Shown: positions 2,104 to 58,112 of the stretch, one piece after another
Layout of the letters: each line of letters opens with the position of its first letter
Position numbering within the stretch: position 1 is the first letter of the stretch
NCBI RefSeq assembly: GCF_044647545.1
Contig: NZ_CP172818.1
DNA from: Escherichia coli
GTDB lineage: Bacteria > Pseudomonadota > Gammaproteobacteria > Enterobacterales > Enterobacteriaceae
Length of the DNA: 64,000 nucleotides
Reading direction: 5' to 3' (one strand)
The notes under the pieces: generated by a model
Told to the model about the DNA's origin: nothing
What the model saw: only the letters and a program-made list of their open reading frames with translations
Databases searched by the model: none
Made by a program: the position numbers and the translations under genes

Positions 2104-2163
2104 TTGATTTTATTAGTAACAAGTATTTTTTATATTTTAATAATATATTTAAAGCAGATAATA

Positions 2164-2466: not shown

Positions 2467-2682
2467 TTAATCAGTAATGATGACATTTGCTGCTGCAGGA
2501 CCTTTAGCACCACTCTCTATAGAGAAGGTAACCTTTTGACCTTCAAATAAGGTTCGATAATTATCATTCTGAATCGCAGAAAAATGCACAAACACATCTT
2601 TACTACCATCAACAGGAGAAATAAAGCCGAAACCTTTATCAGCGTTAAACCATTTTACTAAACCAGTCATTTTATTTGACAT
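2467..2682 (-). CDS. cspB: Cold shock protein CspB (prophage-encoded CspA paralog)
   Basis: 71 aa; [15 protein letters not shown]1 and VFVHF RNP2 motifs; divergent with cspF. Confidence 0.95.
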
Positions 2683-2982
2683 TCTACATTCCTTAACTTG
2701 AGCCTTTCGGCATAAATGGTTTGCATAACAGAAACGACTTCGTACTTAATTGGAGAGACTCAAAGAAGGAATAAGTGAATAACACCTGAAATGAGAACTG
2801 CTTTAGTAAACTACTTCGTATATCGTCTGTTCTTCAAACCGACGCAATCATTAACGCATAGTTGAACATATGAAGCAATGTTTATTTTAGACATCCAGCC
2901 ATCTTCAACCCCATCAAAAAACTATAGCTTTCTTCAGGAACGTGTGTATAGTGCGCCAAGTTATCAGTATTAAGGAATTTTT

Positions 2983-3195
2983 TTGTCCCGTAAAATGACA
3001 GGAATTGTCAAAACCTTTGACGGCAAAAGCGGCAAGGGTCTTATCACCCCATCCGATGGTCGTATCGATGTCCAGCTTCATGTTTCAGCGCTCAATCTCC
3101 GCGATGCAGAAGAAATTACCACCGGATTACGCGTGGAATTTTGCCGGATAAATGGTCTGCGTGGCCCTTCAGCTGCCAATGTTTACCTTTCATGA
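2983..3195 (+). CDS. cspF: Cold shock protein-like CspF
   Basis: 70 aa CspA-family fold with degenerate RNP motifs; divergent partner of cspB. Confidence 0.9.
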
Positions 3196-3487
3196 GCTAT
3201 ATTAAAGCTTTAATTTCAGGCCCCATCGGATCACACATGGAGAGTTTTTATGAATAACCCCGTCTGTCTTGATGACTGGTTGATTGGCTTTAAAAGCTTA
3301 TGCTGTACTTTGGCCGTAATAGCTCTGCTAATAATATAATAAGCAGACTCATTGTGTTTAGGGACATTGTACTGGAAGAAAACATTTTAAACATCAGGCA
3401 AATAACCAAGTCACCAGCTAAATAATAAGTTAACAGACATGAGTCCCGGGATGAGATTCAACATTACCATTGCCCCATTTAAAGCAC

Positions 3488-3516
3488 AAAACCCGCTCAT
3501 CAGCGGGTTTTCTACT
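3488..3516. terminator. Bidirectional rho-independent terminator between cspF and quuQ
   Basis: AAAA-CCCGCT-catc-AGCGGG-TTTTCT hairpin with A-run upstream and T-run downstream. Confidence 0.65.
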
Positions 3517-3616
3517 TTTTCTTAACGTCGGGTATACAAAGCCCATCGTTAGGAGAATCCTAACCAAATTTTTTGAAAAATGCAAGAATCATGTCGCCAT
3601 CTTCGGCGAAAATCAT

Positions 3617-4369
3617 TTATCTCGTCACTTTTCTTAATTGCGCCTCAGCATATGCTTCTTCCTGCCAGCACTTTGTCACCAGTTTATCAATGACATCTGC
3701 ATATCCTTTGTACCACTGATAATCCGTCAGGTCTGGTACCAGCTTCTGGACATGATGCCGCGCCAGTGTGGTTGGTAAACGGCTAAACCGATTTCCATTG
3801 CAACGCCCACAAATCTTATAAACAGGCGTGCCATGAAGCCGGGTCCTTTTTTCATCCAGGACAATACCTTTACCCTTACACCCTCTGCACGCTGTGCTGA
3901 CTTCTCCCTTACCATGACAATGCTGACATAGTTCCTTCACCCACTCTTCCTTGATAACAGATTCCCCGCTTCTGGAGTGTTTCACCACTTCGCGCAATAC
4001 ATTATGAAATCCAGTACCAGCACAATGCTCACAGCGAGCCTTACTTGCCGCAGACCTGGAATAATCAGCAAAGGCAAAATTCACAAGGTAAGGGATGATC
4101 TGTAACCGGGTTTCTTCACTCAATTTGTTCAATGTCGGGTTATCCAGTGCCATCGCGTAATTGAGCAGACCTTCAATCGCAAATTGAGGATCCTGAACAC
4201 CAACTTTTGCCAGGAATAAGGCAAACCCAAGCGGTGCTTTCGACTGCACCATCCCCTGCGCAGCCATCACATCCGTAATCGTTAAACCACCTGAGCCTGT
4301 CGCCGGTGCGTCATCGCTCAATTTTGGAGATTTTGGGGAGTAATATTTTGGTAAGGCTTCAAGGTTCAT
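3617..4369 (-). CDS. quuQ: Lambdoid late-gene antiterminator Q
   Basis: 250 aa; Cys-rich zinc-finger region (CQHCHGKG...CRGCKGKG, CGRCNGNRF) typical of Q proteins; upstream of lysis cassette on same strand. Confidence 0.85.
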   Translation of the reverse strand: MNLEALPKYYSPKSPKLSDDAPATGSGGLTITDVMAAQGMVQSKAPLGFALFLAKVGVQDPQFAIEGLLNYAMALDNPTLNKLSEETRLQIIPYLVNFAFADYSRSAASKARCEHCAGTGFHNVLREVVKHSRSGESVIKEEWVKELCQHCHGKGEVSTACRGCKGKGIVLDEKRTRLHGTPVYKICGRCNGNRFSRLPTTLARHHVQKLVPDLTDYQWYKGYADVIDKLVTKCWQEEAYAEAQLRKVTR

Positions 4370-4564
4370 GCTCGTTCTCCACTTACGCCAGTACGCCTAT
4401 TGCCAGCGCACGATCGATAAAACGAAATATCAGCTCCAGCTGGGAACCATACATCTCTTCAAATGCCACGGTATCCGCATGCAGCTCGTCGTGATGCTTT
4501 CTGCACAAAGGCAACACGAAGAGGTCATGCGCTTTTGTACCCATTCCACCCTGACCGTGGCCTA

Positions 4565-5470
4565 TCAGGTGATGGGGATCATCGGCAGGCTTACCACAAC
4601 ACGCACACGGCTGTGTCTTAACCCAGCGCGTGTACTTCTCATTAACCCAGCGGCGACGTTTAGGCGCTTCATAAAAGATTCCGGCGACTCTGGATCAACG
4701 GCAATGCTGACCACCGTCTTTTCCTGTGGTGGGTTCTGTTGCTGGTGGGCGTGAGGCAGCGGCGCAAGATTTTTTGTGCGCTGTTTCAGTATGCTGGTGG
4801 CGGTCTGCTCTCCCGGTACGATGTCGCTTTCGCGGTACACCGAGCAGATTTTTTCCGCTGGTAATCCCAGCGAACGACGCGATACAGCCTCAGGTAGTGC
4901 ATCCACCACCTGATTGCAGACCGCCCACCAGGATAATTCAGCCAAAGATAATTCCCGCTCCTGCGTACCGCTTATTGCGTGACGGATGACGTCAATCACC
5001 CATGCTGTCAGATTTTGTTGAGCAAGCAGCTCCAGTGATTCCGATGTCTGGTCACGCAGTTGGTTGTCGCAGTGCCAACACAACACCATTGCGCCGGTAC
5101 CATAACGGTGAATGACTGTTTCAGTGTGATGGTAATCTCCATTAGGCCACTGGCAGGATGTAACATGACGTAATAGCCAGTCAGACAATGCGCCAACGCC
5201 GCCAGCAGCACGAATCACCCGTTCGTTACTAAAAAACGGCAGCAATGTTTTGTCTTCCGCCAGCGGCTGGCCAACGGCAGGAACGACTCCGGATGGCAGA
5301 TTACGCATGCTTTTTGGTTCCGGTTCCACCAGCACTCGAGGATTATGAAATATCTGTATGGATTCACGGCCCGGCTTAAGGACCACCAGCCCAAGCTCAG
5401 GCACCAGAACAGGTCTAAGTAATACCCGCACGTTACCTCCAGATCCGTTGCTGGAAAGTGCGGGACGCAC
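4565..5470 (-). CDS. ydfU: Prophage protein, DUF968 family (NinG/Q-upstream region)
   Basis: 301 aa ORF upstream of Q; Cys/His-rich segment; possible C-terminal truncation relative to reference cannot be assessed. Confidence 0.6.
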   Translation of the reverse strand: MRPALSSNGSGGNVRVLLRPVLVPELGLVVLKPGRESIQIFHNPRVLVEPEPKSMRNLPSGVVPAVGQPLAEDKTLLPFFSNERVIRAAGGVGALSDWLLRHVTSCQWPNGDYHHTETVIHRYGTGAMVLCWHCDNQLRDQTSESLELLAQQNLTAWVIDVIRHAISGTQERELSLAELSWWAVCNQVVDALPEAVSRRSLGLPAEKICSVYRESDIVPGEQTATSILKQRTKNLAPLPHAHQQQNPPQEKTVVSIAVDPESPESFMKRLNVAAGLMRSTRAGLRHSRVRVVVSLPMIPIT

Positions 5471-5711
5471 GTGGTGGGCGTTCGGAGTAAGGCAATCTGA
5501 CTGAGATTATCCAGTGACGGTAGTCGAGACTAAGGGCTTTCTTAACCTCGTATCCGCGCCTGCGGTAACACTGAATTATCCATTCAGCCTGCTCTTCAGT
5601 GCATGGAGGGTGTTGGAACCATTCAGACTTGAATGCGTGAGAATACCGCTCGTGCGTGCAGGCAAGAACGGGCGAATTATCAGAATTGTAATATTTTACG
5701 TTGCGTGCCAT
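5433..5711 (-). CDS. Hypothetical prophage protein
   Basis: 92 aa ORF, overlaps ydfU start by 38 nt in another frame; could be N-terminal extension of ydfU after a frameshift. Confidence 0.3.
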   Translation of the reverse strand: MARNVKYYNSDNSPVLACTHERYSHAFKSEWFQHPPCTEEQAEWIIQCYRRRGYEVKKALSLDYRHWIISVRLPYSERPPRASRTFQQRIWR

Positions 5712-5777
5712 CGGTTTTCTCCGGTGGCACGGTGTTACTCAGCGGGAGTTCAGCCCCGCGCAAGATTGTAGATGAGT

Positions 5778-6029
5778 TTATTCTTCTGCAAAAGCTGAAA
5801 AGCCTGCTTTTATTCCGATCTCTTTCAGTGCCTGTAATGAAGTGACAAACTCACCTTCGCGCAAGATAAATCCGTCTGTCACTCGACCATCCACAAAATT
5901 AATTAACGCAGCCCCATTCTTTCGCAAACACATAATGCGGTAATGACTAACAAGATTTCCATTTTCAACGCACACCGCATAGAGGCCATCTTCACAAAAA
6001 ATTTTACGCAGTTCTTCGATGTTCATCAT
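5778..6029 (-). CDS. rem: Prophage protein of unknown function
   Basis: 83 aa ORF in the position of K-12 rem between ydfU and hokD. Confidence 0.55.
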   Translation of the reverse strand: MMNIEELRKIFCEDGLYAVCVENGNLVSHYRIMCLRKNGAALINFVDGRVTDGFILREGEFVTSLQALKEIGIKAGFSAFAEE

Positions 6030-6146
6030 CAGAATCCTTCCGGATAATTAGCTCTCCCCTTTAAGGGACCATCCCTCTTATCCCTGCGCGCTACTTAAGT
6101 ATTTTTGATTCTATTCCGGCACCGTCCAGAACTTCAAACGCGTTGA

Positions 6147-6177
6147 AAATAAAAACAAAAACCCGCCGAAGCGGGTT
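6147..6177 (-). terminator. Rho-independent terminator of relBE-hokD operon (hok mRNA 3' end)
   Basis: Minus strand: AACCCGCTTCGGCGGGTTTTTGTTTTTATTTT hairpin plus T-run, ~70 nt downstream of hokD stop. Confidence 0.8.
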
Positions 6178-6245
6178 AAGTGCGGGTGCGTTGAGGATGC
6201 CTGCCACATCAGAGGTGGCGAGGGATTTCTCCCTCGCCGGGTCTC

Positions 6246-6401
6246 TTACTCCTCAGGTTCGTAAGCTGTGAAGACAGCGACCTCCGTCTGCCCGGTTCGG
6301 ATTCGTACCTCGCAGAGGTCTTTCCTCGTTACCAGTGCCGTCACTATGACGGTTAAACAGATGACGATCAGGGCGATTAACATCGCCTTTTGCTGCTTCA
6401 T
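6246..6401 (-). CDS. hokD: Hok/Gef-family membrane toxin HokD (RelF); not in the ORF track because <60 aa
   Basis: Manual translation of minus strand gives MKQQKAMLIALIVICLTVIVTALVTRKDLCEVRIRTGQTEVAVFTAYEPEE (51 aa), a Hok-family sequence. Confidence 0.9.
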   Translation of the reverse strand: MKQQKAMLIALIVICLTVIVTALVTRKDLCEVRIRTGQTEVAVFTAYEPEE

Positions 6402-6472
6402 AGCCTGCTTCTCCTGTCAACGCAAAGCAGAAGTGTCACCTTCGGTGCGAAACAGAGATGTCATGCTTTGGT

Positions 6473-6760
6473 TCAGAGAATGCGTTTGACCGCCTCGCTA
6501 TATACTTCCGAGCGTTCTCTTTTCCCAACAGAAATCACGAAAACGACAACTTTCTCGTCTATAACCTGGTATACAAGGCGATAGCCTGAAGACCGGAGCT
6601 TAATCTTGTAACAATCAGGCATACCACGGAGCTTGTTTGCTTCAATCCGGGGTGACTCAAGTACTTCAACCAGCTTCTTTTTCAACTGTTCACGTACCGT
6701 CGAGCCCAGCTTTCGCCATTCCTTTAGTGCCCGCTCGTCAAAATCCAGAAAATACGCCAT
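6473..6760 (-). CDS. relE: Type II toxin RelE (ribosome-dependent mRNA endonuclease)
   Basis: 95 aa, overlaps relB stop by 1 nt. Confidence 0.95.
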   Translation of the reverse strand: MAYFLDFDERALKEWRKLGSTVREQLKKKLVEVLESPRIEANKLRGMPDCYKIKLRSSGYRLVYQVIDEKVVVFVISVGKRERSEVYSEAVKRIL

Positions 6761-6999
6761 CAGAGTTCATCCAGCGTCACACGTACTGGCTTAGGATTAC
6801 GAAGCCGTTCTTTCACTATCTCCACAAGTTCAGCATCTTCATCACTCAGGAGTGTCTGTTTGAACGGCAAGCGTTCATTGTCAGCGATATACTCGAGCAT
6901 GAGACGAAGCGCTTCAGAAGGAGTTACACCCATTTTTTCAAGCGCGGCGTAAGAACGCGCTTTAAGTTCATCGTCAATACGCAGGTTAATGCTACCCAT
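6760..6999 (-). CDS. relB: Antitoxin RelB (RHH DNA-binding)
   Basis: 79 aa, MGSINLRIDDELK ribbon-helix-helix N-terminus. Confidence 0.95.
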   Translation of the reverse strand: MGSINLRIDDELKARSYAALEKMGVTPSEALRLMLEYIADNERLPFKQTLLSDEDAELVEIVKERLRNPKPVRVTLDEL

Positions 7000-7011
7000 G
7001 TCTTACACCTC

Positions 7012-7036
7012 TTGTAATTACAAATGTCATTACAAG
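7012..7036 (-). promoter_or_regulatory. relBE operator/promoter region (relO-like inverted hexad repeats)
   Basis: TTGTAATTACAA palindrome followed by TGTCATTACAAG, 13-37 nt upstream of relB start. Confidence 0.6.
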
Positions 7037-7329
7037 TATCGCACTACAACATGCTTAGGGCAAGTCACGAAGGAAGTCAGAAAGTAGTCGTAAGAACGGT
7101 GATCACTGTCCGCTTTGTGCCAGGAGCAGCCATTGCTAAGTCCATCCTGTATTGTGCAGGTCAGCTCGTTTTTAAAGAGTCCGGCCATCATCTTACTGGT
7201 ACAGACACCATATACTTTGTGACGGTCAGGCTACATATGCACAACTCAACTTATTCATCTATTTTTTGCTTTAGCATGTCAGTGTTGCTTTCTCGTCGGC
7301 GGGTGAGCGGTGACCTGACCTGTCGATAA
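7024..7329 (+). CDS. Hypothetical prophage ORF (possibly ydfV; strand and reality uncertain)
   Basis: 101 aa ORF; no clear RBS; overlaps relB promoter region. Confidence 0.25.
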   Translation: MSLQVSHYNMLRASHEGSQKVVVRTVITVRFVPGAAIAKSILYCAGQLVFKESGHHLTGTDTIYFVTVRLHMHNSTYSSIFCFSMSVLLSRRRVSGDLTCR

Positions 7330-7481
7330 AGGAACGTAACACGTTTTATGCAACACCCGCATGCGGCAGAAAATTATTGCCGAACGTTTACCCCTGTCAA
7401 CAAGCTTTACTTTCTGAGGCGCGCCAGCCCGCGAGGAAAACAATCTGAACATCAAACAATTAATGACACAAGAAATACGAT

Positions 7482-7508
7482 TAAAGATTTTTTTGTGCAT
7501 GCCGATAG
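7482..7508 (+). promoter_or_regulatory. Sigma-28 (FliA) class promoter for flxA
   Basis: TAAAGATT-N11-GCCGATAG vs consensus TAAAGTTT-N11-GCCGATAA, ~24 nt upstream of flxA start. Confidence 0.7.
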
Positions 7509-7531
7509 TGCTTTTTTAAAAGGAGAAATCT

Positions 7532-7864
7532 ATGTCTGTCACAATTCAGGGAAATACCTCAACCGTTATTTCAAACAACTCCGCCCCGGAAGGAACATCA
7601 GAAATAGCCAAAATCACAAGACAAATTCAGGTGCTGACTGAAAAGCTTGGGAAAATCTCATCGGAAGAGGGGATGACGACACAGCAGAAAAAAGAAATGG
7701 CTGCATTGGTACAGAAGCAAATTGAAAGCCTCTGGGCTCAACTGGAGCAGTTGTTAAGGCAGCAGGCAGAGAAAAAGAATGAAGACGCGACAGTTCAGCC
7801 TGATAAAAAAGAAGAGAAAAAAGACGATACAAATACCGCTGGCACCATTGATATTTACGTCTAA
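7532..7864 (+). CDS. flxA: FliA-regulated protein FlxA
   Basis: 110 aa, Q/K/E-rich coiled-coil-like; preceded by sigma-28 promoter and AGGAG RBS. Confidence 0.85.
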   Translation: MSVTIQGNTSTVISNNSAPEGTSEIAKITRQIQVLTEKLGKISSEEGMTTQQKKEMAALVQKQIESLWAQLEQLLRQQAEKKNEDATVQPDKKEEKKDDTNTAGTIDIYV

Positions 7865-7878
7865 GTGACAGCCGTATT

Positions 7879-7904
7879 GTGGCCCTCATCGGGCCACTTT
7901 TCGC
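7879..7904 (+). terminator. Rho-independent terminator downstream of flxA
   Basis: GTGGCCC-tcatc-GGGCCAC followed by TTTT. Confidence 0.65.
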
Positions 7905-8248
7905 CATCAGCCTTTTCTTTAAAGACATATTATCTTTGTATCATTTCTGATAGTTAACATTACAAGATATAAGTAATGGACGCACTCCCAATTAGTCTAT
8001 TTAAATCGCCACGAGTTTAACTGACAACCCATGATCAATTATGAATTGCAACTATTTCTGTAGTCACTTTTGTGGGGACAGTCCACAAAACTGCCAACTT
8101 CCGCTTCTTGCTCTTAGCGGACATTAGCATAGGCTATTTACCATAACGCCTCATTACGCGCACCGCCCAGACTGACTCAGCGCGTTTCTGGCATATCCCC
8201 GGTAAAACAAGTAACAAACCACCCGAAAATGAACACCAGAAACGCGAC

Positions 8249-8476
8249 TTAAGAATCTACCCTATGAATGGATATGCACTCAACCGAATCGATCTTGGTT
8301 TCAATCTTTTTTATCGGGATCAGGCTTCTTTTTAGGTAACTTCGGGGGCTTAACTTGCTGATGACTTTGCGTTCGGCGCGTAAGCCAGGGATGGTCAGCT
8401 TTAGGTTTAACATAGTATTTTGAGCGTAAATCAATACGGGCATTATCCACTCGTTCATGGACACTCTTTTCATCAT
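8249..8476 (-). CDS. Hypothetical prophage protein (intK/ydfW region)
   Basis: 75 aa ORF overlapping the next ORF by 4 nt. Confidence 0.35.
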   Translation of the reverse strand: MMKRVSMNEWIMPVLIYAQNTMLNLKLTIPGLRAERKVISKLSPRSYLKRSLIPIKKIETKIDSVECISIHRVDS

Positions 8477-8763
8477 CCAGTGGTAGCCTCCATAATTGCA
8501 GGCACTAGCGCCGTGAACTTTTCACGCTTATCCCTAGTGTCGATAGCCTTCCAGCGTTCGAATATCTTCACTCGATTAACGCCAAGCGCTCGCTGATCAA
8601 CCGCGCCACCTTCATCTGTGACACGCTGAACATCGATGTTCGGGCGCTCTTTCAAAGCCCAGAATGCTTCAGTGATTAATATCGTCGCCTGCTCCTGTGT
8701 CATTCCTGGTCGACATATCCAGGCATCCAGAGCCTCACGAGCCTGTTCAGGAGTGATTTTCAT
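8473..8763 (-). CDS. ydfX: Hypothetical prophage protein
   Basis: 96 aa ORF downstream of dicC on same strand. Confidence 0.45.
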   Translation of the reverse strand: MKITPEQAREALDAWICRPGMTQEQATILITEAFWALKERPNIDVQRVTDEGGAVDQRALGVNRVKIFERWKAIDTRDKREKFTALVPAIMEATTG

Positions 8764-8974: not shown

Positions 8975-9049
8975 CGCACCTCCAATATTGGTTTTCTCAA
9001 TGCTAATCACTCAAGAATCTCAAGTCAAGGGTTATTAAGATATCTAAAT

Positions 9050-9457
9050 ATGAACGAGAAAACTTTAGGTCAACGCATTAGAGAAAGACGTAAGCAGGTA
9101 GGCTTAAGTCAAAACGGTTTAAGCAAAGCTGCTGGCGTATCTGGCTCATCAATTTCATTATGGGAAAGTGACCATACAGCCCCGCGCGGGCAAAATTTGC
9201 ATCGCCTCGCCGAGGTATTGCAATGTTCACCAACCTGGATACTGTTTGGCGACGAGGACAAAACACCAGCTCCCCCTGTTTCACTCGATAGTGCCTTAGA
9301 CTTATCGGAAGATGAGTTAGAGATGCTGCGTTTGTATCGCGCACTTCCTAAATCAGAGCAACAAGCACAACTCAGCGAACTCCGCGCCCGCGTTGAGAAT
9401 TTTAATCGCCTGTTCACCGAGCTATTAGAGGCTCGCAAACGCTACAAGCATCAATAA
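9050..9457 (+). CDS. dicA: CI-like HTH repressor DicA (represses dicB operon)
   Basis: 135 aa, N-terminal XRE-type HTH (GLSQNGLSKAAGVSGSSISLWE). Confidence 0.85.
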   Translation: MNEKTLGQRIRERRKQVGLSQNGLSKAAGVSGSSISLWESDHTAPRGQNLHRLAEVLQCSPTWILFGDEDKTPAPPVSLDSALDLSEDELEMLRLYRALPKSEQQAQLSELRARVENFNRLFTELLEARKRYKHQ

Positions 9458-9649
9458 TCATCCCTTCACAAAATTTTAAAGCCTTACATTTCAATGTATT
9501 GGCTTTATCTTGCGCCAATACTTGAGTTTTCTCATCAAAAAACCTTGACGAAAAATAATGAGAAAACTAAATTACTTCCATCAAGACACCGCACGGTGTT
9601 CTCAGCAAACAGTTCCGCTACCCCGGCGTTAAGGGGAAATGAGGTCAGC

Positions 9650-9802
9650 ATGGATACTATCGATCTTGGCAACAGCGAATCTCTGGTATGTGGCGTGTTC
9701 CCCAACCAGGACGGTACGTTCACCGCGATGACATATACCAAAAGCAAAACGTTTAAAACCGAATCTGGCGCGCGTTGCTGGTTAGCCAGAAACACTGACT
9801 GA
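9650..9802 (+). CDS. ydfA: Small prophage protein, first gene of dicB operon
   Basis: Start MDTIDLG with GAGG RBS; ~50 aa. Confidence 0.65.
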   Translation: MDTIDLGNSESLVCGVFPNQDGTFTAMTYTKSKTFKTESGARCWLARNTD

Positions 9803-10179
9803 TGAGGCTGACGATGGAATTTAAAGATTTACCGTCTGATGTACAGAAAACAGCAGCTCATACATTGCATTCTGTGCTGCGAGAAATCGGGAAAGATATT
9901 GCAAGCGAGCCAGCAAAAGATCTGGCCCGGAAAATCAAGACCGCTTTCGTTGAGCTTTATAATGTTGGCACTGACTCTGAAACTGTCGAGACCAAGACCG
10001 TAAGTTCACCAATATTCTCACTTGAGCCAGGCGTATTATCAGGTGAAATATGCACCGAGATTTCCAGCGAACTGCTTCCGGTAATACGAGAAGCAATTTG
10101 CCGTCGCGGTTTGGATGGAAGTTACGATCATGACGTCCTGCAAGTTCTCAGGACAATGGTGACTTCACTGGGGATTTGA
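9802..10179 (+). CDS. Prophage protein spanning the ydfB-ydfC position as one 125-aa ORF
   Basis: Single continuous ORF; in K-12 annotation I recall two small genes here. Confidence 0.5.
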   Translation: MRLTMEFKDLPSDVQKTAAHTLHSVLREIGKDIASEPAKDLARKIKTAFVELYNVGTDSETVETKTVSSPIFSLEPGVLSGEICTEISSELLPVIREAICRRGLDGSYDHDVLQVLRTMVTSLGI

Positions 10180-10621
10180 TCCCTGCGTCCTCTAACCTTT
10201 TGATATAGCGGTCCTCCAAGAAGCGGTAAATTTTGTCGAAATCATCTTTCCCCTCTGTTTATTCAGAGGATTACAGGACCCGTAAGTAGCGGCATACATT
10301 TCAACCGTTTTATCAAAAATATAAGAGACAAATTCTTCTTTAGTCATATAGATTTCCTTCAATGGGTTATTCGGAAAGAAGGATACCACTTCGCCTGACG
10401 TGTTAAAAGCAGGCATACAACACGAAAGCGCACGGCGAAGTTCGTCTCACTGTACGGTGTCGTTAAATTTAATTCGACCGTGCGCTTCCGGTTGTGGCAA
10501 CCCGCGAAATGGCGCGGCGGTAAGTATGGCGGGGTTATTCCTTCCCCGTTGAGGACACCGAGTTGTCAGGTTGACCATACGCTTAAGTGACAACCCCGCT
10601 GCAACGCCCTCTGTTATCAAT

Positions 10622-10678
10622 TTTCTGGTGACGTTTGGCGGTATCAGTTTTACTCCGTGACTGCTCTGCCGCCCTTTT
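10622..10678 (+). ncRNA. dicF: DicF small regulatory RNA (ftsZ-targeting antisense sRNA)
   Basis: Sequence TTTCTGGTGACGTTTGGCGGTATCAGTTTTACTCCGTGACTGCTCTGCCGCCCTTTTT matches DicF as recalled, ending in hairpin plus T-run; exact processed ends not determinable. Confidence 0.85.
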
Positions 10679-10848
10679 TAAAGTGAATTTTGTGATGCGG
10701 TGAATGCGGCTGAGCGCACGCGGAACAGTTAAAACCAAAAACAGTGTTATGGGTGGATTCTCTGTATCCGGCGTTAATTGTTAACTGGTTAACGTCACCT
10801 GGAGGCACCAGGCACCGCATCACAAAATTCATTGTTGAGGACGCGATA

Positions 10849-11037
10849 ATGGAAACGTTATTACCAAACGTTAATACGTCTGAAGGTTGTTTTGAAATTG
10901 GTGTCACTATCAGTAACCCTGTATTTACTGAAGATGCCATTAACAAGAGAAAACACGAACGGAAGCTATTAAATAAAATATGCATTCTTTCAATGTTGGC
11001 CCGTTTACGTCCGATACAAAAAGGATGCTGGCAATGA
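10849..11037 (+). CDS. dicB: Cell division inhibitor DicB (MinC-dependent)
   Basis: 62 aa from METLLPNV; stop overlaps ydfD start (ATGA). Confidence 0.85.
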   Translation: METLLPNVNTSEGCFEIGVTISNPVFTEDAINKRKHERKLLNKICILSMLARLRPIQKGCWQ

Positions 11038-11225
11038 ATACAGCATTTGCACTTGTTCTGACAGTTTTTCTTGTTTCCGGAGAGCCAGTTGATATTGCAG
11101 TCAGTGTTCACAGGACAATGCAGGAGTGTGTGACTGCAGCAACCGAACAGAAAATTCCCGGTAACTGTTACCCGGTCGATAAAGTTATTCACCAGGATAA
11201 TAACGAAATCCCGGCAGGTCTTTAA
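11034..11225 (+). CDS. ydfD: Small membrane lysis/toxic protein YdfD
   Basis: 63 aa from MNTAFAL with hydrophobic N-terminal segment; translationally coupled to dicB. Confidence 0.7.
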   Translation: MNTAFALVLTVFLVSGEPVDIAVSVHRTMQECVTAATEQKIPGNCYPVDKVIHQDNNEIPAGL

Positions 11226-12199
11226 AACAGTTCCGTAATAAACATCCGATTTCATTCTTATATGCCAGCAATGGCAGGGATTTGTTCACCCTTAAATCTG
11301 TAATGAGGTAAAACAAAATGAGTAAAGTCTTTATTTGCGCCGCCATTCCGGACGAACAGGCAATAAAGGAAGAAGGTGCCGTCGCTGTAGCCACTGCCAT
11401 TGAAGCCGGTGATGAACGTCGCGCCCGCGCAAAATTTCACTGGCAATTCCTGGAACATTATCCGGCTGCTCAGGACTGCGCTTATAAATTTCTTGTTTGC
11501 GAGGATAAACCCGGTATACCCCGCCCTGCCCTCGATTCCTGGGATGCTGAATATATGCAGGAAAACCGCTGGGATGAGGCGTCTGCTTCCTTTGTCCCGG
11601 TCGAGACTGAATCCGATCCGATGAACGTCACTTTTGACAACCTAGCCCCTGAAGTACAGAACGCTGTCATGGTTAAGTTCGACACATGTGAAAACATCAC
11701 TGTTGATATGGTGATTAGCGCACAGGAATTGTTGCAGGAAGACATGGCAACATTCGACGGCCATATCGTTGAAGCGTTGATGAAAATGCCAGAAGTTAAC
11801 GCTATGTATCCGGAGCTTAAGCTGCATGCCATCGGGTGGGTTAAGCATAAATGTAAGCCTGGTGCCAAATGGCCCGAAATTCAGGCAGAGATGCGCATCT
11901 GGAAAAAACGTCGCGAAGGTGAACGCAAGGAAGCCGGAAAATACACGTCTGTTGTTGATCTCGCCCGCGCCAGAGCCAATCAACAGCACACTGAAAATTC
12001 AACAGGAAAAATCAACCCGGTCATTGCTGCCATTCATCGCGAATACAAGCAGACATGGAAAACACTGGATGACGAACTGGCCTACGCTCTCTGGCCTGGT
12101 GATGTGGATGCCGGAAACATTGACGGCAGCATCCATCGCTGGGCAAAAAATGAAGTTATCGACAACGACCGCGAAGACTGGAAGCGTATCTCGGCATCA

Positions 12200-12960
<761 letters not shown>

Positions 12961-12997
12961 AAACCATGGAGGGAAATTACGTATCTGTTTTTTATAA

Positions 12998-14212
12998 AGG
13001 CGTAAGAGCAGGGAAAACCTGGGGGTCGAAAAAGGAAAAAAAAGGCGCGTTGCAGGTGAGCTACGCGCCTCTGTTTGTTACGCAATAAAAACTGGTGTTT
13101 TCGACTATGCAAAACAGTTTCCCTCCTCACGCAATCTGGAAAAATTTGGTGAGGCCCGACAAGATTTAACCATAAAAGAACTGGCTGAAAAATTTCTGGC
13201 ACTGAAAGAAACTGAAGTCGCAAAAACATCACTCAACACATACCGTGCCGTCATCAAAAATATCCTGAGCATAATCGGTGAAAAAAATCTTGCCTCATCG
13301 ATTAATAAAGAAAAATTACTGGAGGTTCGTAAAGAGCTACTGACTGGATACCAGATCCCCAAAAGTAACTATATTGTTACACAACCAGGGAGATCGGCTG
13401 TAACTGTAAATAATTACATGACAAATCTTAACGCCGTGTTCCAGTTTGGTGTTGATAACGGTTACCTGGCAGATAACCCGTTTAAGGGGATCTCGCCATT
13501 AAAGGAATCAAGAACCATTCCGGATCCTCTTTCGCGGGAGGAATTCATCCGTCTTATCGATGCGTGCAGAAATCAGCAAGCCAAAAATTTATGGTGTGTT
13601 TCTGTTTATACTGGCGTTCGCCCTGGTGAGCTGTGTGCACTTGGATGGGAGGACATAGATCTGAAAAATGGAACAATGATGATCAGGAGAAATTTAGCAA
13701 AAGACCGTTTCACGGTACCAAAAACACAGGCGGGAACCAATCGGGTCATTCATCTTATTAAGCCAGCAATCGACGCTCTCCGGAGTCAGATGACATTAAC
13801 GAGACTGAGCAAAGAGCATATCATTGATGTTCACCTCAGAGAGTATGGCAGAACAGAAAAACATAAATGCACCTTTGTTTTTCAACCTGAAGTGTCAGCG
13901 AGAGTAAAAAATTATGGTGACCATTTTACCGTTGACTCAATAAGGCAGATGTGGGACGCAGCGATAAAACGTGCCGGACTCCGCCATCGAAAATCATATC
14001 AGTCGAGACATACTTATGCCTGCTGGTCGCTGACAGCTGGTGCTAACCCGGCATTTATAGCAAACCAGATGGGCCATGCAGATGCGCAAATGGTATTTCA
14101 GGTATACGGAAAATGGATGTCTGAAAACAATAATGCACAGGTAGCTTTGTTAAATACACAGTTAAGCGAGTTTGCCCCAACCATGCCCCATAACGAAGCA
14201 ATGAAAAATTAA
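12998..14212 (+). pseudogene. intQ: Lambdoid tyrosine integrase lacking its start (N-terminus displaced by the IS fragment)
   Basis: Open frame from 12998 with no plausible start until internal M at 13418; C-terminal catalytic region with HxxR (QSRHTYACW) and tyrosine (VYGKWM) signatures. Confidence 0.8.
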
Positions 14213-50079: not shown

Positions 50080-51255
50080 ATGCAAAAACTCATTAACTCA
50101 GTGCAAAACTATGCCTGGGGCAGCAAAACGGCGTTGACTGAACTTTATGGTATGGAAAATCCGTCCAGCCAGCCGATGGCCGAGCTGTGGATGGGCGCAC
50201 ATCCGAAAAGCAGTTCACGGGTGCAGAATGCCGCCGGAGATATCGTTTCACTGCGTGATGTGATTGAGAGTGATAAAGCGACTCTTTTGGGAGATGCCGT
50301 TGCCAAACGCTTTGGCGAACTGCCTTTCCTGTTCAAAGTATTATGCGCAGCACAGCCGCTCTCCATTCAGGTTCATCCAAACAAACGCAATTCTGAAATC
50401 GGTTTTGCCAAAGAAAATGCCGCAGGTATTCCGATGGATGCCGCCGAGCGTAACTATAAAGATCCTAACCACAAGCCGGAGCTGGTTTTTGCGCTGACGC
50501 CTTTCCTTGCGATGAACGCGTTTCGTGATTTTTCCGAGATTGTCTCCCTGCTCCAGCCGGTCGCAGGTGCACATCCGGCGATTGCTCACTTTTTACAACA
50601 GCCTGATGCCGAACGTTTAAGCGAACTGTTCGCCAGCCTGTTGAATATGCAGGGTGAAGAAAAATCCCGCGCGCTGGCGATTTTAAAATCGGCCCTCGAC
50701 AGCCAGCAGGGTGAACCGTGGCAAACGATTCGTTTAATTTCTGAATTTTACCCGGAAGACAGCGGTCTGTTCTCCCCGCTATTGCTGAATGTGGTGAAAT
50801 TGAACCCTGGCGAAGCGATGTTCCTGTTCGCTGAAACACCGCACGCTTACCTGCAAGGCGTGGCGCTGGAAGTGATGGCGAACTCCGATAACGTGCTGCG
50901 TGCAGGTCTGACGCCTAAATACATTGATATTCCGGAACTGGTTGCCAATGTGAAGTTCGAAGCCAAACCGGCTAACCAGTTGTTGACCCAGCCGGTGAAA
51001 CAAGGTGCAGAACTGGACTTCCCGATTCCTGTTGATGATTTTGCCTTCTCGCTGCATGATCTTAGTGATAAAGAAACCAACATCAGCCAGCAGAGTGCCG
51101 CCATTTTGTTCTGCGTCGAAGGCGATGCAACGCTGTGTAAAGGTTCTCAGCAGTTACAGCTTAAACCGGGTGAATCAGCGTTTATTGCCGCCAACGAATC
51201 ACCGGTGACTGTCAAAGGCCACGGCCGTTTAGCGCGTGTTTACAACAAGCTGTAA
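50080..51255 (+). CDS. manA: Mannose-6-phosphate isomerase
   Basis: 391 aa from MQKLINSVQNYAWGSK. Confidence 0.95.
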   Translation: MQKLINSVQNYAWGSKTALTELYGMENPSSQPMAELWMGAHPKSSSRVQNAAGDIVSLRDVIESDKATLLGDAVAKRFGELPFLFKVLCAAQPLSIQVHPNKRNSEIGFAKENAAGIPMDAAERNYKDPNHKPELVFALTPFLAMNAFRDFSEIVSLLQPVAGAHPAIAHFLQQPDAERLSELFASLLNMQGEEKSRALAILKSALDSQQGEPWQTIRLISEFYPEDSGLFSPLLLNVVKLNPGEAMFLFAETPHAYLQGVALEVMANSDNVLRAGLTPKYIDIPELVANVKFEAKPANQLLTQPVKQGAELDFPIPVDDFAFSLHDLSDKETNISQQSAAILFCVEGDATLCKGSQQLQLKPGESAFIAANESPVTVKGHGRLARVYNKL

Positions 51256-51355
51256 GAGCTTACTGAAAAAATTAACATCTCTTGCTAAGCTTATTAAAGG
51301 CTTATAACACCTTCAGGCGGCCAGTCCGCCTGATTTCATTTTATGGATAATCATT

Positions 51356-52864
51356 ATGAATAAATCGCTGGTAGCGGTAGGCGTCATTGTTGCGCTAGGC
51401 GTAGTCTGGACAGGCGGCGCATGGTATACAGGCAAGAAGATTGAAACCCATCTCGAAGACATGGTCGCGCAGGCGAACGCGCAACTCAAACTGACCGCTC
51501 CTGAATCCAACCTGGAAGTGAGTTATCAAAACTATCATCGCGGCGTATTCAGCAGTCAGCTGCAACTGTTGGTGAAACCCATTGCCGGGAAAGAAAATCC
51601 GTGGATTAAAAGCGGTCAGAGCGTCATCTTCAACGAATCGGTTGATCATGGTCCCTTCCCCCGTGCCCAGCTAAAAAAACTGAACCTGATCCCGTCGATG
51701 GCATCAATTCAAACCACGCTGGTTAATAACGAAGTTAGCAAGCCACTGTTTGATATGGCAAAAGGTGAAACGCCTTTTGAGATTAACTCCCGCATTGGTT
51801 ACAGCGGAGATTCCAGTTCCGATATTTCGCTCAAGCCGCTGAATTACGAGCAAAAGGATGAAAAAGTCGCCTTTAGCGGCGGCGAGTTCCAGTTAAATGC
51901 GGACAGAGACGGCAAAGCTATCTCCCTTTCCGGAGAGGCGGAAAGTGGTCGGATAGACGCAGTTAACGAATACAACCAGAAAGTACAGTTGACCTTTAAT
52001 AATCTGAAAACCGACGGTTCCAGCACGCTGGCAAGTTTTGGTGAGCGCGTAGGAAACCAAAAACTGTCACTGGAAAAAATGACCATTTCAGTGGAAGGCA
52101 AAGAACTGGCACTGCTGGAAGGCATGGAGATCAGCGGTAAATCGGATCTGGTCAATGACGGTAAAACGATCAATAGCCAACTGGATTACTCGCTAAACAG
52201 CCTGAAGGTACAGAATCAGGATCTGGGCAGCGGCAAGCTGACTTTAAAAGTCGGCCAGATTGATGGTGAAGCCTGGCATCAGTTTAGCCAGCAATATAAC
52301 GCGCAAACTCAGGCGCTGCTGGCACAGCCAAAAATTGCCAACAATCCCGAACTTTATCAGGAGAAAGTGACGGAAGCCTTCTTTAGCGCCCTGCCGCTGA
52401 TGTTGAAAGGCGATCCGGTGATTACTATCGCGCCGCTAAGCTGGAAAAACAGTCAGGGTGAAAGTGCGCTGAATCTGTCGCTGTTCCTGAAAGATCCGGC
52501 AACAACTAAAGAAGCGCCGCAAACGCTGGCGCAGGAAGTGGACCGCTCGGTTAAATCTCTGGATGCGAAACTGACCATTCCGGTGGATATGGCAACTGAG
52601 TTGATGACTCAGGTAGCGAAGCTGGAAGGTTATCAGGAAGATCAAGCGAAAAAACTGGCGAAACAGCAAGTTGAAGGTGCATCAGCAATGGGGCAGATGT
52701 TCCGTCTGACCACCTTGCAGGACAATACCATCACCACCAGCCTGCAATATGCTAACGGTCAGATAACGTTAAACGGGCAGAAAATGCCACTGGAAGATTT
52801 CGTGGGTATGTTTGCGATGCCGACATTAAACGTTCCGGCTGTACCCGCTATTCCGCAGCAGTAA
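51356..52864 (+). CDS. ydgA: DUF945 family periplasmic/membrane-anchored protein
   Basis: 502 aa, N-terminal TM/signal. Confidence 0.85.
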   Translation: MNKSLVAVGVIVALGVVWTGGAWYTGKKIETHLEDMVAQANAQLKLTAPESNLEVSYQNYHRGVFSSQLQLLVKPIAGKENPWIKSGQSVIFNESVDHGPFPRAQLKKLNLIPSMASIQTTLVNNEVSKPLFDMAKGETPFEINSRIGYSGDSSSDISLKPLNYEQKDEKVAFSGGEFQLNADRDGKAISLSGEAESGRIDAVNEYNQKVQLTFNNLKTDGSSTLASFGERVGNQKLSLEKMTISVEGKELALLEGMEISGKSDLVNDGKTINSQLDYSLNSLKVQNQDLGSGKLTLKVGQIDGEAWHQFSQQYNAQTQALLAQPKIANNPELYQEKVTEAFFSALPLMLKGDPVITIAPLSWKNSQGESALNLSLFLKDPATTKEAPQTLAQEVDRSVKSLDAKLTIPVDMATELMTQVAKLEGYQEDQAKKLAKQQVEGASAMGQMFRLTTLQDNTITTSLQYANGQITLNGQKMPLEDFVGMFAMPTLNVPAVPAIPQQ

Positions 52865-52874
52865 TTCACAGAAA

Positions 52875-52904
52875 CGCCGGAGATTTTTCTCTCCGGCGTT
52901 TTTT
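52875..52904 (+). terminator. Rho-independent terminator after ydgA
   Basis: CGCCGGAGA-tttttc-TCTCCGGCG followed by T6. Confidence 0.8.
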
Positions 52905-52905
52905 C

Positions 52906-53229
52906 TTACTTCAGCATAAAGTCATACTGAATACTCATTTTCACATCCCAGTAATTCAGGCGATCGCCCAGCGCACTGCCATCGCGCTTTTCCCGCCCTT
53001 TATCGGCAGCAAGAAAGAAATTCATCCCTTGTAACGCCTCGGAATTACGAATATCTGCATCGGCGAACTGATCGTTAAAACTGCCCGGCACAGCAATTGC
53101 CCGGCTTTCTTGTAACGCGCTTTCCCACCAACGCTGATCAATTCCACAGTTTTCGCGATCCAGACTGAATGCCCACAGGCCGTCGAGTTTTTTGATTTCA
53201 CGGGTTGGGGTTTCTACAGGACGTAACAT
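52906..53229 (-). pseudogene. uidA: Remnant of beta-glucuronidase gene: first 62 codons of uidA fused to 45 unrelated codons; rest of uidA and uidB/uidC region absent
   Basis: N-terminal MLRPVETPTREIKKLDGLWAFSLDRENCGIDQRWWESALQESRAIAVPGSFNDQFADADIRN matches GUS as recalled, then diverges; ORF ends 41 nt from ydgA stop. Confidence 0.8.
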
Positions 53230-53618
53230 AAGGGACTCCTCATTAAGATAAAAATACTGGTCAACCTTTAATCTGATTAGTTAACCAATTCTGTGTTGCA
53301 CACAGTTATCTGTGAGAAACCCATGGAAGAGAAATGGAAATAAAAAGAACTGACACCGCGATCAAAAAACCAAAAACTGCAATACCCACAGCGTGATATT
53401 GATCGCATTAATCTTTAAAACAGCGTTGACAGAAGCCACAAAATAAGCAATCGAACGTTCGTTCGAACATATTGGGAGCGATAAACCCTCATGATATATT
53501 GCTACGATGAATATTTAGGTGGGATTCTCCGATCCCTGGGAGGATGATTTTTGCACAGAGAAATTACGATATGAAACGCGGGCACAGTTGTCACCAGCCC
53601 GCGGAAAGAGAGAGAGGA

Positions 53619-54209
53619 TCAGGATGCGGTTAAGATACCGCCAATCATCGCGCGTAAACCCTGAGCAAACGACGCTTCACGAGCCAGGTCTTCCGCTTCG
53701 ATATCGGCCAGTACACCGTAGGTCAGATCCAGCAGTAAACGTGCAGTCATTGCCGTGTTGATGTCTGGGCTTATCTCGCCTTTTTGCTGGGCATCACGCA
53801 TCCGCTGGGCAACAAATTCCGTGATCGTCATATGTTTATTTTTAAGCATGGCGGCGACCTGTGGGTTACGCATCCCTTCCGCCATAATTTCGACCACCAG
53901 CGCCCGTTGTCCAAAGGCTTCATGGGTGAGAGAGACAATAGACTCGACCATATAGTCAACGAAATGAATCCCTTCAATCGGTTCCCGGAAACGGGCCAGC
54001 GCCCTCTCCTGGTCCTGTAAGATAATCGCCTGAATCAAGGCTTCTTTGGAGATGAAATGGTGATAGAGCGTCCCGGGACTAATGGCGCAAGATTTACAGA
54101 TGGCTTTCATCGAGGCACTGTGAAATCCATTTTCTGAAAAAATCTCTCTCGCAGCATTGAGGATCCGGGTCCGTGTCGGTTGTGCTTCAGTCTGCATGTT
54201 ATCCATCAT
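53619..54209 (-). CDS. uidR: TetR-family repressor of the uid operon
   Basis: 196 aa, N-terminal TetR HTH. Confidence 0.9.
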   Translation of the reverse strand: MMDNMQTEAQPTRTRILNAAREIFSENGFHSASMKAICKSCAISPGTLYHHFISKEALIQAIILQDQERALARFREPIEGIHFVDYMVESIVSLTHEAFGQRALVVEIMAEGMRNPQVAAMLKNKHMTITEFVAQRMRDAQQKGEISPDINTAMTARLLLDLTYGVLADIEAEDLAREASFAQGLRAMIGGILTAS

Positions 54210-54437
54210 TAAACCATTATAGTTAGCGTGAATAACTAGTTTACCGCGTTGTCAGGTGAGCGCCTATCATTGCTGTTGAATAGTGCGAAGGCACACTCTA
54301 TTCGTATACTTTTCACCCAGCAATTGGTTAACCAATAGCCGTGATTTGGCTGTCAGTTGTTTCGCAGAGACGTTGATGAGTTGTTCACGCTATCCCGGTA
54401 AACAACACGTACGGCTGTTTACCGGTCCGTTAGTGTA

Positions 54438-55205
54438 TTAATTGAGCTCCTGTACCCCACCACCGGAGACGGTGAGAATTTGTCCGCTTACCCAGCTGGC
54501 TGCAGGCGAGCAAAGGAACAGCGCCGCGTTAGCAATATCTTGCGGTTGGCCCAGACGTCTGATCGGTGTGTGCTGTAACATTTTTTGTTCAATTTCTGGT
54601 GTAATAACGGATTTTAGGGCATCGGTTAATATTGCCCCCGGCGCAATGCCATTCACCCGAATATTTTTTTCACCCAGGTCAAACGCCATATTTCTGACCA
54701 GATGACTGGCCGCAGCTTTAGATGATGCATAAGAAGTCATGTTTATATTTTTATTTTCTGCCGCCATAGAAGTGATGGTCAGAATAACGCCACCGCCATT
54801 TTTTTCCATTTTTGGCGCAACAAGTTGTGACAGATGGAAAAAAGAAAACACATTCAGTTCATAAGCACGGCGAAAATCTGCCATTGGCATATCAAACGGT
54901 TTAGGACCACCGCCACCGGCGTTGTTAACTAGGATATCAACTTTACCCAGCTTACTGACGGCAAAGTCTGCCAGTGCAGAGAGTTCCTGTTCGGAAGTAA
55001 TATCGCAGCGGCAGGCAAATGCCTGACCACCCAGTTGTTGAATTTCATCTACAACATGGTTAGCTGCGTCGGCGTTAATATCACTGACCACCACAGATGC
55101 GCCAGCTGTCGCGAATGTAATGGCAATTTCTTTACCAATACCTGCACCCGCACCTGTGATGATGGCGCATTTTCCGTCGAGTCTCAGGTTGTCAGAATTA
55201 AACAC
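54438..55205 (-). CDS. hdhA: 7-alpha-hydroxysteroid dehydrogenase (SDR)
   Basis: 255 aa; TGAGAGIG, YxxxK. Confidence 0.9.
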   Translation of the reverse strand: MFNSDNLRLDGKCAIITGAGAGIGKEIAITFATAGASVVVSDINADAANHVVDEIQQLGGQAFACRCDITSEQELSALADFAVSKLGKVDILVNNAGGGGPKPFDMPMADFRRAYELNVFSFFHLSQLVAPKMEKNGGGVILTITSMAAENKNINMTSYASSKAAASHLVRNMAFDLGEKNIRVNGIAPGAILTDALKSVITPEIEQKMLQHTPIRRLGQPQDIANAALFLCSPAASWVSGQILTVSGGGVQELN

Positions 55206-55316
55206 ATAAACCTCCTGTGAACTTCAGTAAAGATAAAAGGCACCGCCTGTGTGCCACATTTTTTATCATTAACCTTGAGGAAAGGACACTACCAGGTATA
55301 GCAGATAAAGAGAGGA

Positions 55317-58112
<2,796 letters not shown>

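What the first reader, a model, noticed from the sequence alone, without database searches (positions are those of the whole stretch)
52865..53230. Glucuronide operon largely absent: 62-codon uidA stub fused to a short unrelated tail next to ydgA
The ORF at 52906-53229 (minus) starts with the exact N-terminus of beta-glucuronidase for 62 residues, then diverges into 45 codons that are not GUS and stops 41 nt from ydgA. In the K-12 arrangement as I recall it, uidA (about 600 codons), uidB and uidC lie between uidR and ydgA; here only ~0.36 kb separates the uidA start from ydgA, implying a ~4.5 kb deletion whose distal end is probably inside uidC. No FRT/lox-type scar is visible at the junction. 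The strain would be GUS-negative and unable to import glucuronides while retaining the repressor uidR.
Basis: partly seen in the sequence, partly recalled or inferred. Interest (0 to 1): 0.55.

Follow-up and report, generated by a model that had tools for sequence, protein, structure and literature searches.

The report
Natural uidABC deletion remnant, ST648 lineage
This is the leftover of an ordinary natural deletion that removed the glucuronide-utilisation genes uidA, uidB and uidC in one E. coli lineage (ST648); it matters mainly because such strains should escape beta-glucuronidase and uidA-PCR tests for E. coli.

Summary
The ORF at 52906-53229 (-) encodes UidA residues 1-62 (62/62 identical to K-12), three junction codons (S-E-A), then 42 codons. 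The tail is not unrelated: it is the in-frame C-terminus of UidC (L380-K421) and uses uidC's own stop and terminator hairpin.

Relative to K-12, about 4.16 kb is missing (uidA from codon 63, all of uidB, about 90% of uidC). There is no room for an FRT/lox or IS scar.

The deletion is not specific to this strain. 84 of 5,426 complete E. coli genomes carry the same remnant, including strains published as ST648, phylogroup F. RefSeq annotates it as two pseudogene fragments. One other genome has an independent uidA'-'uidC deletion.

This window differs from all of them at two points:
- 18 nt at the natural junction are replaced by 7 nt, turning the usual out-of-frame 72-aa stub into an in-frame 107-aa ORF.
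- CCA is missing just after the ydgA stop.

The rest of the 50-kb core is identical to relatives apart from 2 SNPs, and the 107-aa product occurs on one public contig only. The same window also holds clearly degraded sequence (a 34-nt poly-A run in a garbled IS2 fragment). The private junction is therefore either an assembly error or a trivial private mutation.

Verdict: ordinary lineage-wide gene loss, low interest.

The parts
51356..52864 (+). ydgA (DUF945 protein), intact; left neighbour of the remnant
   Evidence: ORF; annotated ydgA in relatives and in K-12
52870..52903 (.). G+C-rich hairpin with T-run. It is the shared intrinsic terminator of ydgA (+) and of uidC/the stub (-). CCA, present in every other genome examined, is missing between 52871 and 52872.
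   Evidence: Terminator scan. Fold dG -22.6 kcal/mol, z -7.4. The CCA gap is seen against L001/L004 and in every listed full-length match, all of which span 280 nt for the 277-nt query, out of 3,667 genomes with the REP-free spacer.
52906..53036 (-). uidC 3' remnant: stop codon, codons L380-K421, and 2 nt of codon P379
   Evidence: 163/166 identity of 52871-53036 to K-12 L002 3552-3717; translation comparison
53037..53042 (.). Junction filler CCTCGG, private to this window. With 53043 it replaces the 18 nt GCCCTTCGCTGACCCGAT of the natural junction and makes the fusion in frame (codons S63-E64-A65).
   Evidence: Alignments to L001/L004. No complete genome shares it. The 107-aa product is on one public contig. 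No local template was found.
53043..53229 (-). uidA 5' remnant: ATG, codons 1-62, and the first base of codon 63
   Evidence: Alignment to K-12 L002 7886-8072; 62/62 aa; Pfam Glyco_hydro_2_N, model positions 1-51 of 169
53230..53618 (-). uidR-uidA intergenic region with the uidA promoter/operator region retained. The motif GTTAACCAAT at 53280 recurs upstream of uidR at 54327.
   Evidence: 96% identity to K-12 over 53043-53700; motif positions. Promoter and operator function is inferred from K-12 knowledge and was not tested.
53619..54209 (-). uidR, intact TetR-family repressor, now without its structural genes
   Evidence: ORF; 195/196 identity to K-12 UidR

Best explanation
The region is the relic of one ancestral deletion in the E. 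coli ST648 (phylogroup F) lineage.

Illegitimate recombination with at most 1 nt of microhomology joined uidA just after codon 62 to uidC at about codon 373. This removed 4,151 bp: the rest of uidA, all of uidB and about 88% of uidC. What remains is the uidA promoter/operator region, the ribosome-binding site, 62 codons of uidA, the last about 45 codons of uidC, and the shared ydgA/uidC terminator.

In the lineage the fusion is out of frame and gives a 72-aa stub. The locus is a pseudogene. By inference, cells lack beta-glucuronidase, the glucuronide/H+ symporter and the glucuronide porin, and keep an orphan UidR repressor.

In this window the junction carries a further private change, 18 nt replaced by 7 nt, and CCA is lost next to the hairpin. 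By chance (1 in 3) the junction change puts the stub in frame with the UidC tail, giving 107 aa. I consider these two changes about equally likely to be assembly errors or a real private mutation. Either way there is no functional consequence. The product has 51 of 169 positions of the sugar-binding domain, no catalytic domain, no signal peptide, and only the last strands of a porin barrel.
For: Shown:
- Endpoints and in-frame uidC tail.
- Natural junction GTAACG-GCCCTTCGCTGACCCGAT-ATTACG, which is uninterrupted K-12-like uidC sequence abutting uidA, with a 1-nt overlap.
- 84 complete genomes share this natural junction at an identical score.
- Those genomes are otherwise 100% identical to the window over 15 kb and over 50 kb apart from 2 SNPs.
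- Members include MS6198 and strain ST648, published as phylogroup F ST648 (PMC8281228).
- RefSeq annotates the two halves as incomplete pseudogenes.
- 86 of 5,426 genomes lack the uidC-uidB-uidA interior altogether, so there is no second copy elsewhere in the relatives.
- The 72-aa natural stub is seen on at least 1,000 public contigs, the 107-aa form on exactly one.

Pointing to artefact for the private junction:
- All 14 differing bases are losses in the window, and they are the only indels in 50 kb of core sequence.
- The same window has a 34-nt poly-A run and an IS2 fragment only 78-90% identical to IS2, with A-biased errors.
Against: - The phenotype (GUS-negative, no glucuronide uptake) is inferred, not measured.
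- Assignment of all 84 genomes to ST648 rests on two published strains plus sequence identity; I did not run MLST.
- The two private changes sit exactly at the two ends of the uidC remnant. Random error does not explain that placement, and the unique-sequence core of the assembly is otherwise error-free, so a real secondary event is not excluded.
- The window block being a pure subsequence of the natural block is not significant: 13.5% of random 7-mers and 29% of composition-matched ones are too.
Confidence: 0.9

Rival explanations
1. The private junction (CCTCGGA in place of 18 nt) and the missing CCA are assembly or consensus errors. The real strain carries the standard ST648 junction and the 72-aa out-of-frame stub. 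This is a sub-hypothesis of the best explanation.
For: - The 107-aa product is a singleton among about 15 billion proteins, whereas the natural stub is on at least 1,000 contigs.
- No complete genome has this junction.
- Every difference is a loss of bases in the window.
- The same window contains clearly degraded sequence: poly-A 12406-12439, an A-biased garbled IS2 fragment, and single-base gaps across 8990-13050.
- A Logan contig shows that sequencing errors do produce spurious in-frame variants here.
Against: - The other 50 kb of unique sequence has no indel at all, so the polishing worked in unique DNA.
- This locus is single-copy, unlike the IS and prophage patches.
- The two changes lie at the boundaries of the uidC remnant rather than at random positions.
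Confidence: 0.5
2. The private junction is a real secondary complex indel in one isolate, occurring in already dead DNA. It happens to restore the uidC frame and is neutral.
For: - The core of the assembly is otherwise exact.
- A pseudogene remnant is free to accumulate indels.
- An in-frame outcome has a 1-in-3 chance.
Against: - Two separate indels within 170 bp, against none in 50 kb and only 2 SNPs.
- No single contiguous deletion converts one junction into the other.
- There is no nearby template for a templated mutation.
- It is seen in one contig only.
Confidence: 0.4
3. The deletion arose independently in this strain, or was engineered in the laboratory as a delta-uidABC host.
For: - The junction sequence differs from that of all 84 relatives.
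- Independent uidA'-'uidC deletions do occur, as in LZHX12.
Against: - The uidA breakpoint coincides with the lineage breakpoint within 1 nt.
- The flanks are 100% identical to the deletion-bearing clade, whereas genomes with an intact operon are below 99% identical over 15 kb.
- There is no FRT, lox, cassette or IS sequence; the junction is only 6-7 nt.
Confidence: 0.04
4. The in-frame 107-aa UidA(1-62)-SEA-UidC(380-421) chimera is a selected, expressed small protein under UidR control and has a new function.
For: - It has an intact promoter region, ribosome-binding site, start codon and terminator.
- The repressor is retained.
- The junction codons S-E resemble UidC S376-E377.
Against: - It is a singleton.
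- The lineage form is out of frame.
- It contains only fragments of two unrelated folds and no signal peptide for the porin part.
- There is no evidence of conservation.
Confidence: 0.02

Closest known systems
uidA'-'uidC pseudogene remnant of E. coli ST648 genomes (e.g. FDAARGOS_497 EGY17_RS22215 / EGY17_RS28025; MS6198; strain ST648; IMT16316; ECONIH1)
   Same: Same position and same neighbours. The uidA breakpoint agrees within 1 nt. The uidC tail and terminator are the same, and the flanks are 100% identical.
   Different: The natural junction keeps 18 more nt of uidC and is out of frame (72-aa stub). The window has 7 other nt there, is in frame (107 aa), and lacks CCA after ydgA.
K-12 uidR-uidABC (gus) operon
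   Same: uidR, the uidR-uidA intergenic region, uidA codons 1-62, uidC codons 380-421 and the stop codon are collinear and 96-100% identical.
   Different: 4,168 bp of K-12 sequence is absent at the junction. K-12 also has a REP/BIME and a second hairpin copy between ydgA and uidC, which two thirds of E. coli genomes lack.
Independent uidA'-'uidC deletion in E. coli LZHX12 (NZ_CP155555.1)
   Same: It is also a deletion from within uidA to within uidC that leaves uidR intact.
   Different: The endpoints differ (111 uidA codons and 342 nt of uidC kept), and the genetic background is different.
GUS-negative E. coli O157:H7 (uidA inactivated by point or frameshift mutations; my own knowledge and papers listed, not read)
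   Same: A lineage-wide loss of beta-glucuronidase activity in a clinically important clone.
   Different: O157:H7 keeps full-length uidA, uidB and uidC DNA (e.g. H165), so uidA PCR still works. Here the DNA itself is gone.
Laboratory delta-uidA / Keio-type deletions (my own knowledge)
   Same: Loss of uidA coding sequence.
   Different: Those carry an FRT scar or a cassette and precise design endpoints. None is present here.

Membership tests
Beta-glucuronidase UidA (GH2) | Full three-domain GH2 architecture: sugar-binding N-domain, immunoglobulin-like domain, and TIM-barrel catalytic domain with the catalytic glutamates; about 603 aa | tested here: not met
   Only residues 1-62 are UidA. Pfam matches Glyco_hydro_2_N model positions 1-51 of 169 and nothing else.
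Beta-glucuronidase UidA (GH2) | N-terminal sequence, start codon and upstream region orthologous to K-12 uidA | tested here: met
   62/62 aa identical. The DNA 53043-53700 is 96% identical to the K-12 uidA 5' end through uidR.
Glucuronide porin UidC | Full-length outer-membrane barrel of about 421 aa with an N-terminal signal peptide | tested here: not met
   Only L380-K421 are retained and they are fused to a cytoplasmic N-terminus. Pfam finds no porin domain.
Glucuronide porin UidC | Tail orthologous to the uidC 3' end, in frame and with the same stop | tested here: met
   163/166 nt identity of 52871-53036, a stretch that includes the stop at the same position. 41/42 aa match K-12 and 42/42 match the allele seen in relatives (P0002).
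ST648-type uidABC deletion allele | Same breakpoints and junction sequence as the 84 complete genomes | tested here: inconclusive
   The uidA breakpoint is the same within 1 nt and the flanks are identical. The junction block differs (7 nt against 18 nt) and the uidC end is 18 nt shorter. This is consistent with descent plus a secondary change or an error.
ST648-type uidABC deletion allele | Flanking haplotype of the deletion-bearing clade | tested here: met
   15 kb is identical apart from the locus. Only 82 records are at or above 99% identity. There are 2 SNPs in 50 kb.
Engineered recombinase-scar deletion (FRT/loxP) | A 34-nt FRT or loxP site, or cassette remnant, at the junction | tested here: not met
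   The junction consists of 6-7 nt between uidC and uidA sequence.
IS-mediated deletion | An IS element or IS end at the junction | tested here: not met
   There is no extra sequence at the natural or the window junction.

The most novel reading that the evidence does not exclude
The two private changes at the two ends of the uidC remnant are real and come from a single remodelling event. That event re-created an in-frame, UidR-regulated 107-aa UidA-UidC chimera with some selected role in this isolate. A more modest version is that the whole pandemic multidrug-resistant ST648 clone is GUS-negative and uidA-PCR-negative, and is systematically under-counted by GUS-based E. coli detection. I found that point only hinted at in the literature (PMC12429562 drops uidA from MLST).
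Probability: 0.03. Interest if true: 0.3.

Novelty: already known. Interest (0 to 1): 0.12.

Why it matters
In biological terms this is routine gene loss.

Its practical relevance is diagnostic. Beta-glucuronidase activity (MUG, X-Gluc, chromogenic agars, ISO 16649) and uidA PCR are standard ways to identify and count E. coli. A clone that has physically lost uidA will be scored as not E. coli. ST648 is an internationally spread multidrug-resistant clone, so surveys that pick only GUS-positive colonies, or that confirm isolates with uidA primers, would under-sample it.

In the 5,426 complete genomes, 86 lack the uidC-uidB-uidA interior and 84 of those are this allele.

For genome scanning the lesson is different. 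The only feature unique to this window, the in-frame junction, may well be an assembly artefact.

Tried and rejected
- Engineered deletion: rejected. There is no scar and the deletion is shared by natural isolates.
- Second deletion between ydgA and uidC: rejected. The REP-free single-hairpin spacer is the majority state (3,667 of 5,426 genomes), and K-12 is the one with extra REP/BIME.
- Templated (quasi-palindrome) origin of CCTCGGA: no copy of 9 nt or more within 3 kb on either strand.
- Deletion-only derivation of the window junction from the natural one: it is formally possible, but 13.5-29% of random 7-mers also fit, so it carries no weight.
- Looking for the window junction elsewhere: none in complete genomes. 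JGI metagenome contigs gave 0 hits, but the positive control with the natural junction also gave 0, so that scan is uninformative.
- Identifying the source assembly through private ORFs: three exact look-ups found nothing on record. All I learned is that the 107-aa product sits on one NCBI contig of 4,499,902 bp.
- A second in-frame variant (P0008, 111 aa): traced to a Logan contig that also has an extra A in a ydgA A-run, so it is most likely homopolymer error.
- RNA families across 51000-55500: nothing near the gathering scores.
- Literature: five full-text searches found no paper stating that ST648 lacks uidA or is GUS-negative. The only trace is an ST648 study that used Pasteur MLST 'except for the uidA gene'.

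Full report
**What is in the sequence.** The window carries manA, ydgA (51356-52864, +), a 107-codon ORF on the minus strand (52906-53229), uidR (53619-54209, -), hdhA and malI. The order is as in E. coli K-12, except that K-12 has uidC, uidB and uidA between ydgA and uidR.

The ORF's first 62 residues are identical to K-12 UidA 1-62. Pfam sees only the first 51 of 169 positions of the GH2 sugar-binding domain. The ORF stop lies 41 nt from the ydgA stop.

**What the tail is.** Window 52871-53036 aligns at 163/166 to K-12 DNA that runs from the uidC terminator hairpin through the last 131 nt of uidC, and the stop codon is at the same position. In protein terms the ORF reads UidA 1-62, then S-E-A, then UidC L380-K421. 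The single difference from K-12 in that tail (T to A) is the allele of the relatives. The tail is thus not unrelated sequence but the in-frame C-terminus of UidC.

At the junction, 4,168 bp of K-12 sequence (L002 3718-7885) are absent and 6 nt (CCTCGG, 53037-53042) stand in their place. There is no room for an FRT, lox or IS sequence.

The hairpin at 52870-52903 (dG -22.6 kcal/mol, z -7.4) is the terminator shared by ydgA and uidC. K-12 has an extra REP/BIME and a second hairpin copy between ydgA and uidC. The single-hairpin spacer seen here is the majority state, found in 3,667 of 5,426 genomes, so it is not a second deletion.

**It is a lineage trait.** A search of 5,426 complete E. coli genomes found 85 in which ydgA, the remnant and uidR are contiguous. 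84 of them share one junction. One, LZHX12, has an independent deletion that keeps 111 uidA codons and 342 nt of uidC.

RefSeq annotates the remnant as two incomplete pseudogenes, one 'sugar-binding domain-containing protein' missing its C-terminus and one 'hypothetical protein' missing its N-terminus. Members include MS6198 and the strain named ST648, both tabulated as phylogroup F, ST648 in PMC8281228.

These genomes are identical to the window over 15 kb except at this locus, whereas all other genomes are below 99% identical. Against FDAARGOS_497, window 13155-64000 differs by 2 SNPs plus this locus. 86 genomes have no match at all to the uidC-uidB-uidA interior, so the relatives carry no displaced copy.

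The natural junction is GTAACG-GCCCTTCGCTGACCCGAT-ATTACG. This is K-12-like uidC sequence running 18 nt further and then abutting uidA, with a 1-nt overlap. It amounts to a 4,151-bp deletion by illegitimate recombination. The fusion is out of frame and ends after 72 aa. That 72-aa product is seen on at least 1,000 public contigs.

**What is unique to this window.** Two things, 166 nt apart and at the two ends of the uidC remnant:
- CCA is missing between 52871 and 52872. All the listed matches from the 3,667 REP-free genomes span 280 nt for the 277-nt query, so they have it.
- The 18-nt block of the natural junction is replaced by CCTCGGA, which makes the ORF in frame.

No single contiguous deletion converts one junction into the other. 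No template for the new block lies nearby. The fact that the new block can be read as a subsequence of the old one is not significant, at 13.5-29% by chance. The exact 107-aa product is in the 15-billion-protein collection once, on an NCBI contig of 4,499,902 bp.

**Is that difference real?** I cannot decide without reads.

For an artefact:
- All 14 differing bases are losses in the window.
- They are the only indels in 50 kb of unique sequence.
- The variant is a singleton.
- The same window contains unmistakably degraded sequence. This includes a 34-nt poly-A run (12406-12439), an IS2 fragment only 78-90% identical to IS2 with A-biased substitutions and insertions, and single-base gaps against all relatives across 8990-13050.
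- A Logan contig with the natural junction plus one extra C, giving a spurious 111-aa in-frame ORF, also has an extra A in a ydgA A-run. Read errors therefore do generate such variants here.

For a real private mutation:
- The unique core is otherwise exact.
- The locus is single-copy.
- The DNA is dead and free to change.

An in-frame result is a 1-in-3 chance either way. I rate artefact at about 0.5, real neutral mutation at about 0.4, and anything else at 0.1 or less.

**How it works.** Shown: the structural genes are physically gone, while the regulatory region, the uidA start and uidR (195/196 to K-12) remain.

Inferred from established knowledge of the K-12 uid operon: the strain cannot hydrolyse or import beta-glucuronides by this route. 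UidR is an orphan repressor that at most still controls transcription of the stub and of itself. A GTTAACCAAT motif lies upstream of both, at 53280 and 54327. The stub product, whether 72 or 107 aa, lacks the catalytic domain of UidA and the signal peptide and barrel of UidC, so it should be inert.

**Comparison with what is known, and novelty.** The allele is already in public annotated genomes. GUS-negative E. coli lineages are well known. O157:H7 is the classic case, but it keeps the uidABC DNA (H165).

In five full-text searches I found no paper that states ST648 lacks uidA. The only trace is an ST648 study that built trees from the Pasteur MLST loci 'except for the uidA gene' (PMC12429562). 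The practical point, that a pandemic multidrug-resistant clone is invisible to GUS-based and uidA-PCR-based identification, may be under-reported. It is still an application of known biology.

**Verdict.** This is ordinary lineage-wide gene loss, classed as already known. The only novel-looking feature, the in-frame junction, may be an assembly artefact. Interest 0.12.

Noticed in passing
window 12240-12920 (poly-A at 12406-12439 and 12441-12449): An IS2-transposase fragment, comparable to insD7 of K-12 Qin, is only 78-90% identical to IS2. It has many A insertions and changes to A, plus a 34-nt poly-A run that gives an ORF with a poly-lysine stretch. This looks like low-quality or gap-filled assembly rather than biology.
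   Followed up: partly
window 8990-13050: About 15 single-base gaps, mostly lost G or T, and C-to-A or G-to-A changes relative to all ST648 complete genomes in the early region of the Qin-like prophage. The start of the integrase gene is garbled, with its ATG lost. No complete genome matches this stretch better than 99.2%.
   Followed up: partly
window 1-8485: The late region of the Qin-like prophage (rzpQ, rrrQ, ydfT, ydfU, flxA) follows the K-12-type architecture. Its best match is 97.9%, in non-ST648 strains, while only parts match the ST648 genome FDAARGOS_497. The prophage is mosaic although the adjacent core is identical to ST648.
   Followed up: no
window 52871/52872: CCA is present after the ydgA stop in all listed matches from the 3,667 genomes with this spacer, and is absent here. 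The loss lengthens the terminator stem to 14 pairs rather than disrupting it.
   Followed up: yes
L002 (K-12) 3403-3551: K-12 and about one third of E. coli genomes carry a REP/BIME element flanked by two near-identical copies of the terminator hairpin between ydgA and uidC. The window and the majority of genomes have one hairpin and no REP.
   Followed up: partly
window 53280 and 54324-54336: GTTAACCAAT occurs upstream of the uidA stub and, as the palindrome TTGGTTAACCAA, upstream of uidR. These are candidate UidR operator half-sites, not tested.
   Followed up: no
L007 (E. coli LZHX12, NZ_CP155555.1) 2395-3067: An independent uidA'-'uidC deletion in an unrelated 4.62-Mb strain keeps 111 uidA codons and 342 nt of uidC. 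Loss of the uid operon by internal deletion has therefore happened more than once.
   Followed up: partly
L006 (Logan SRR12298677 contig) 506-841: This contig has the natural ST648 junction with one extra C, giving a 111-aa in-frame UidA-UidC ORF. The same contig has an extra A in a ydgA A-run that splits ydgA, so homopolymer read error is the likely cause.
   Followed up: yes
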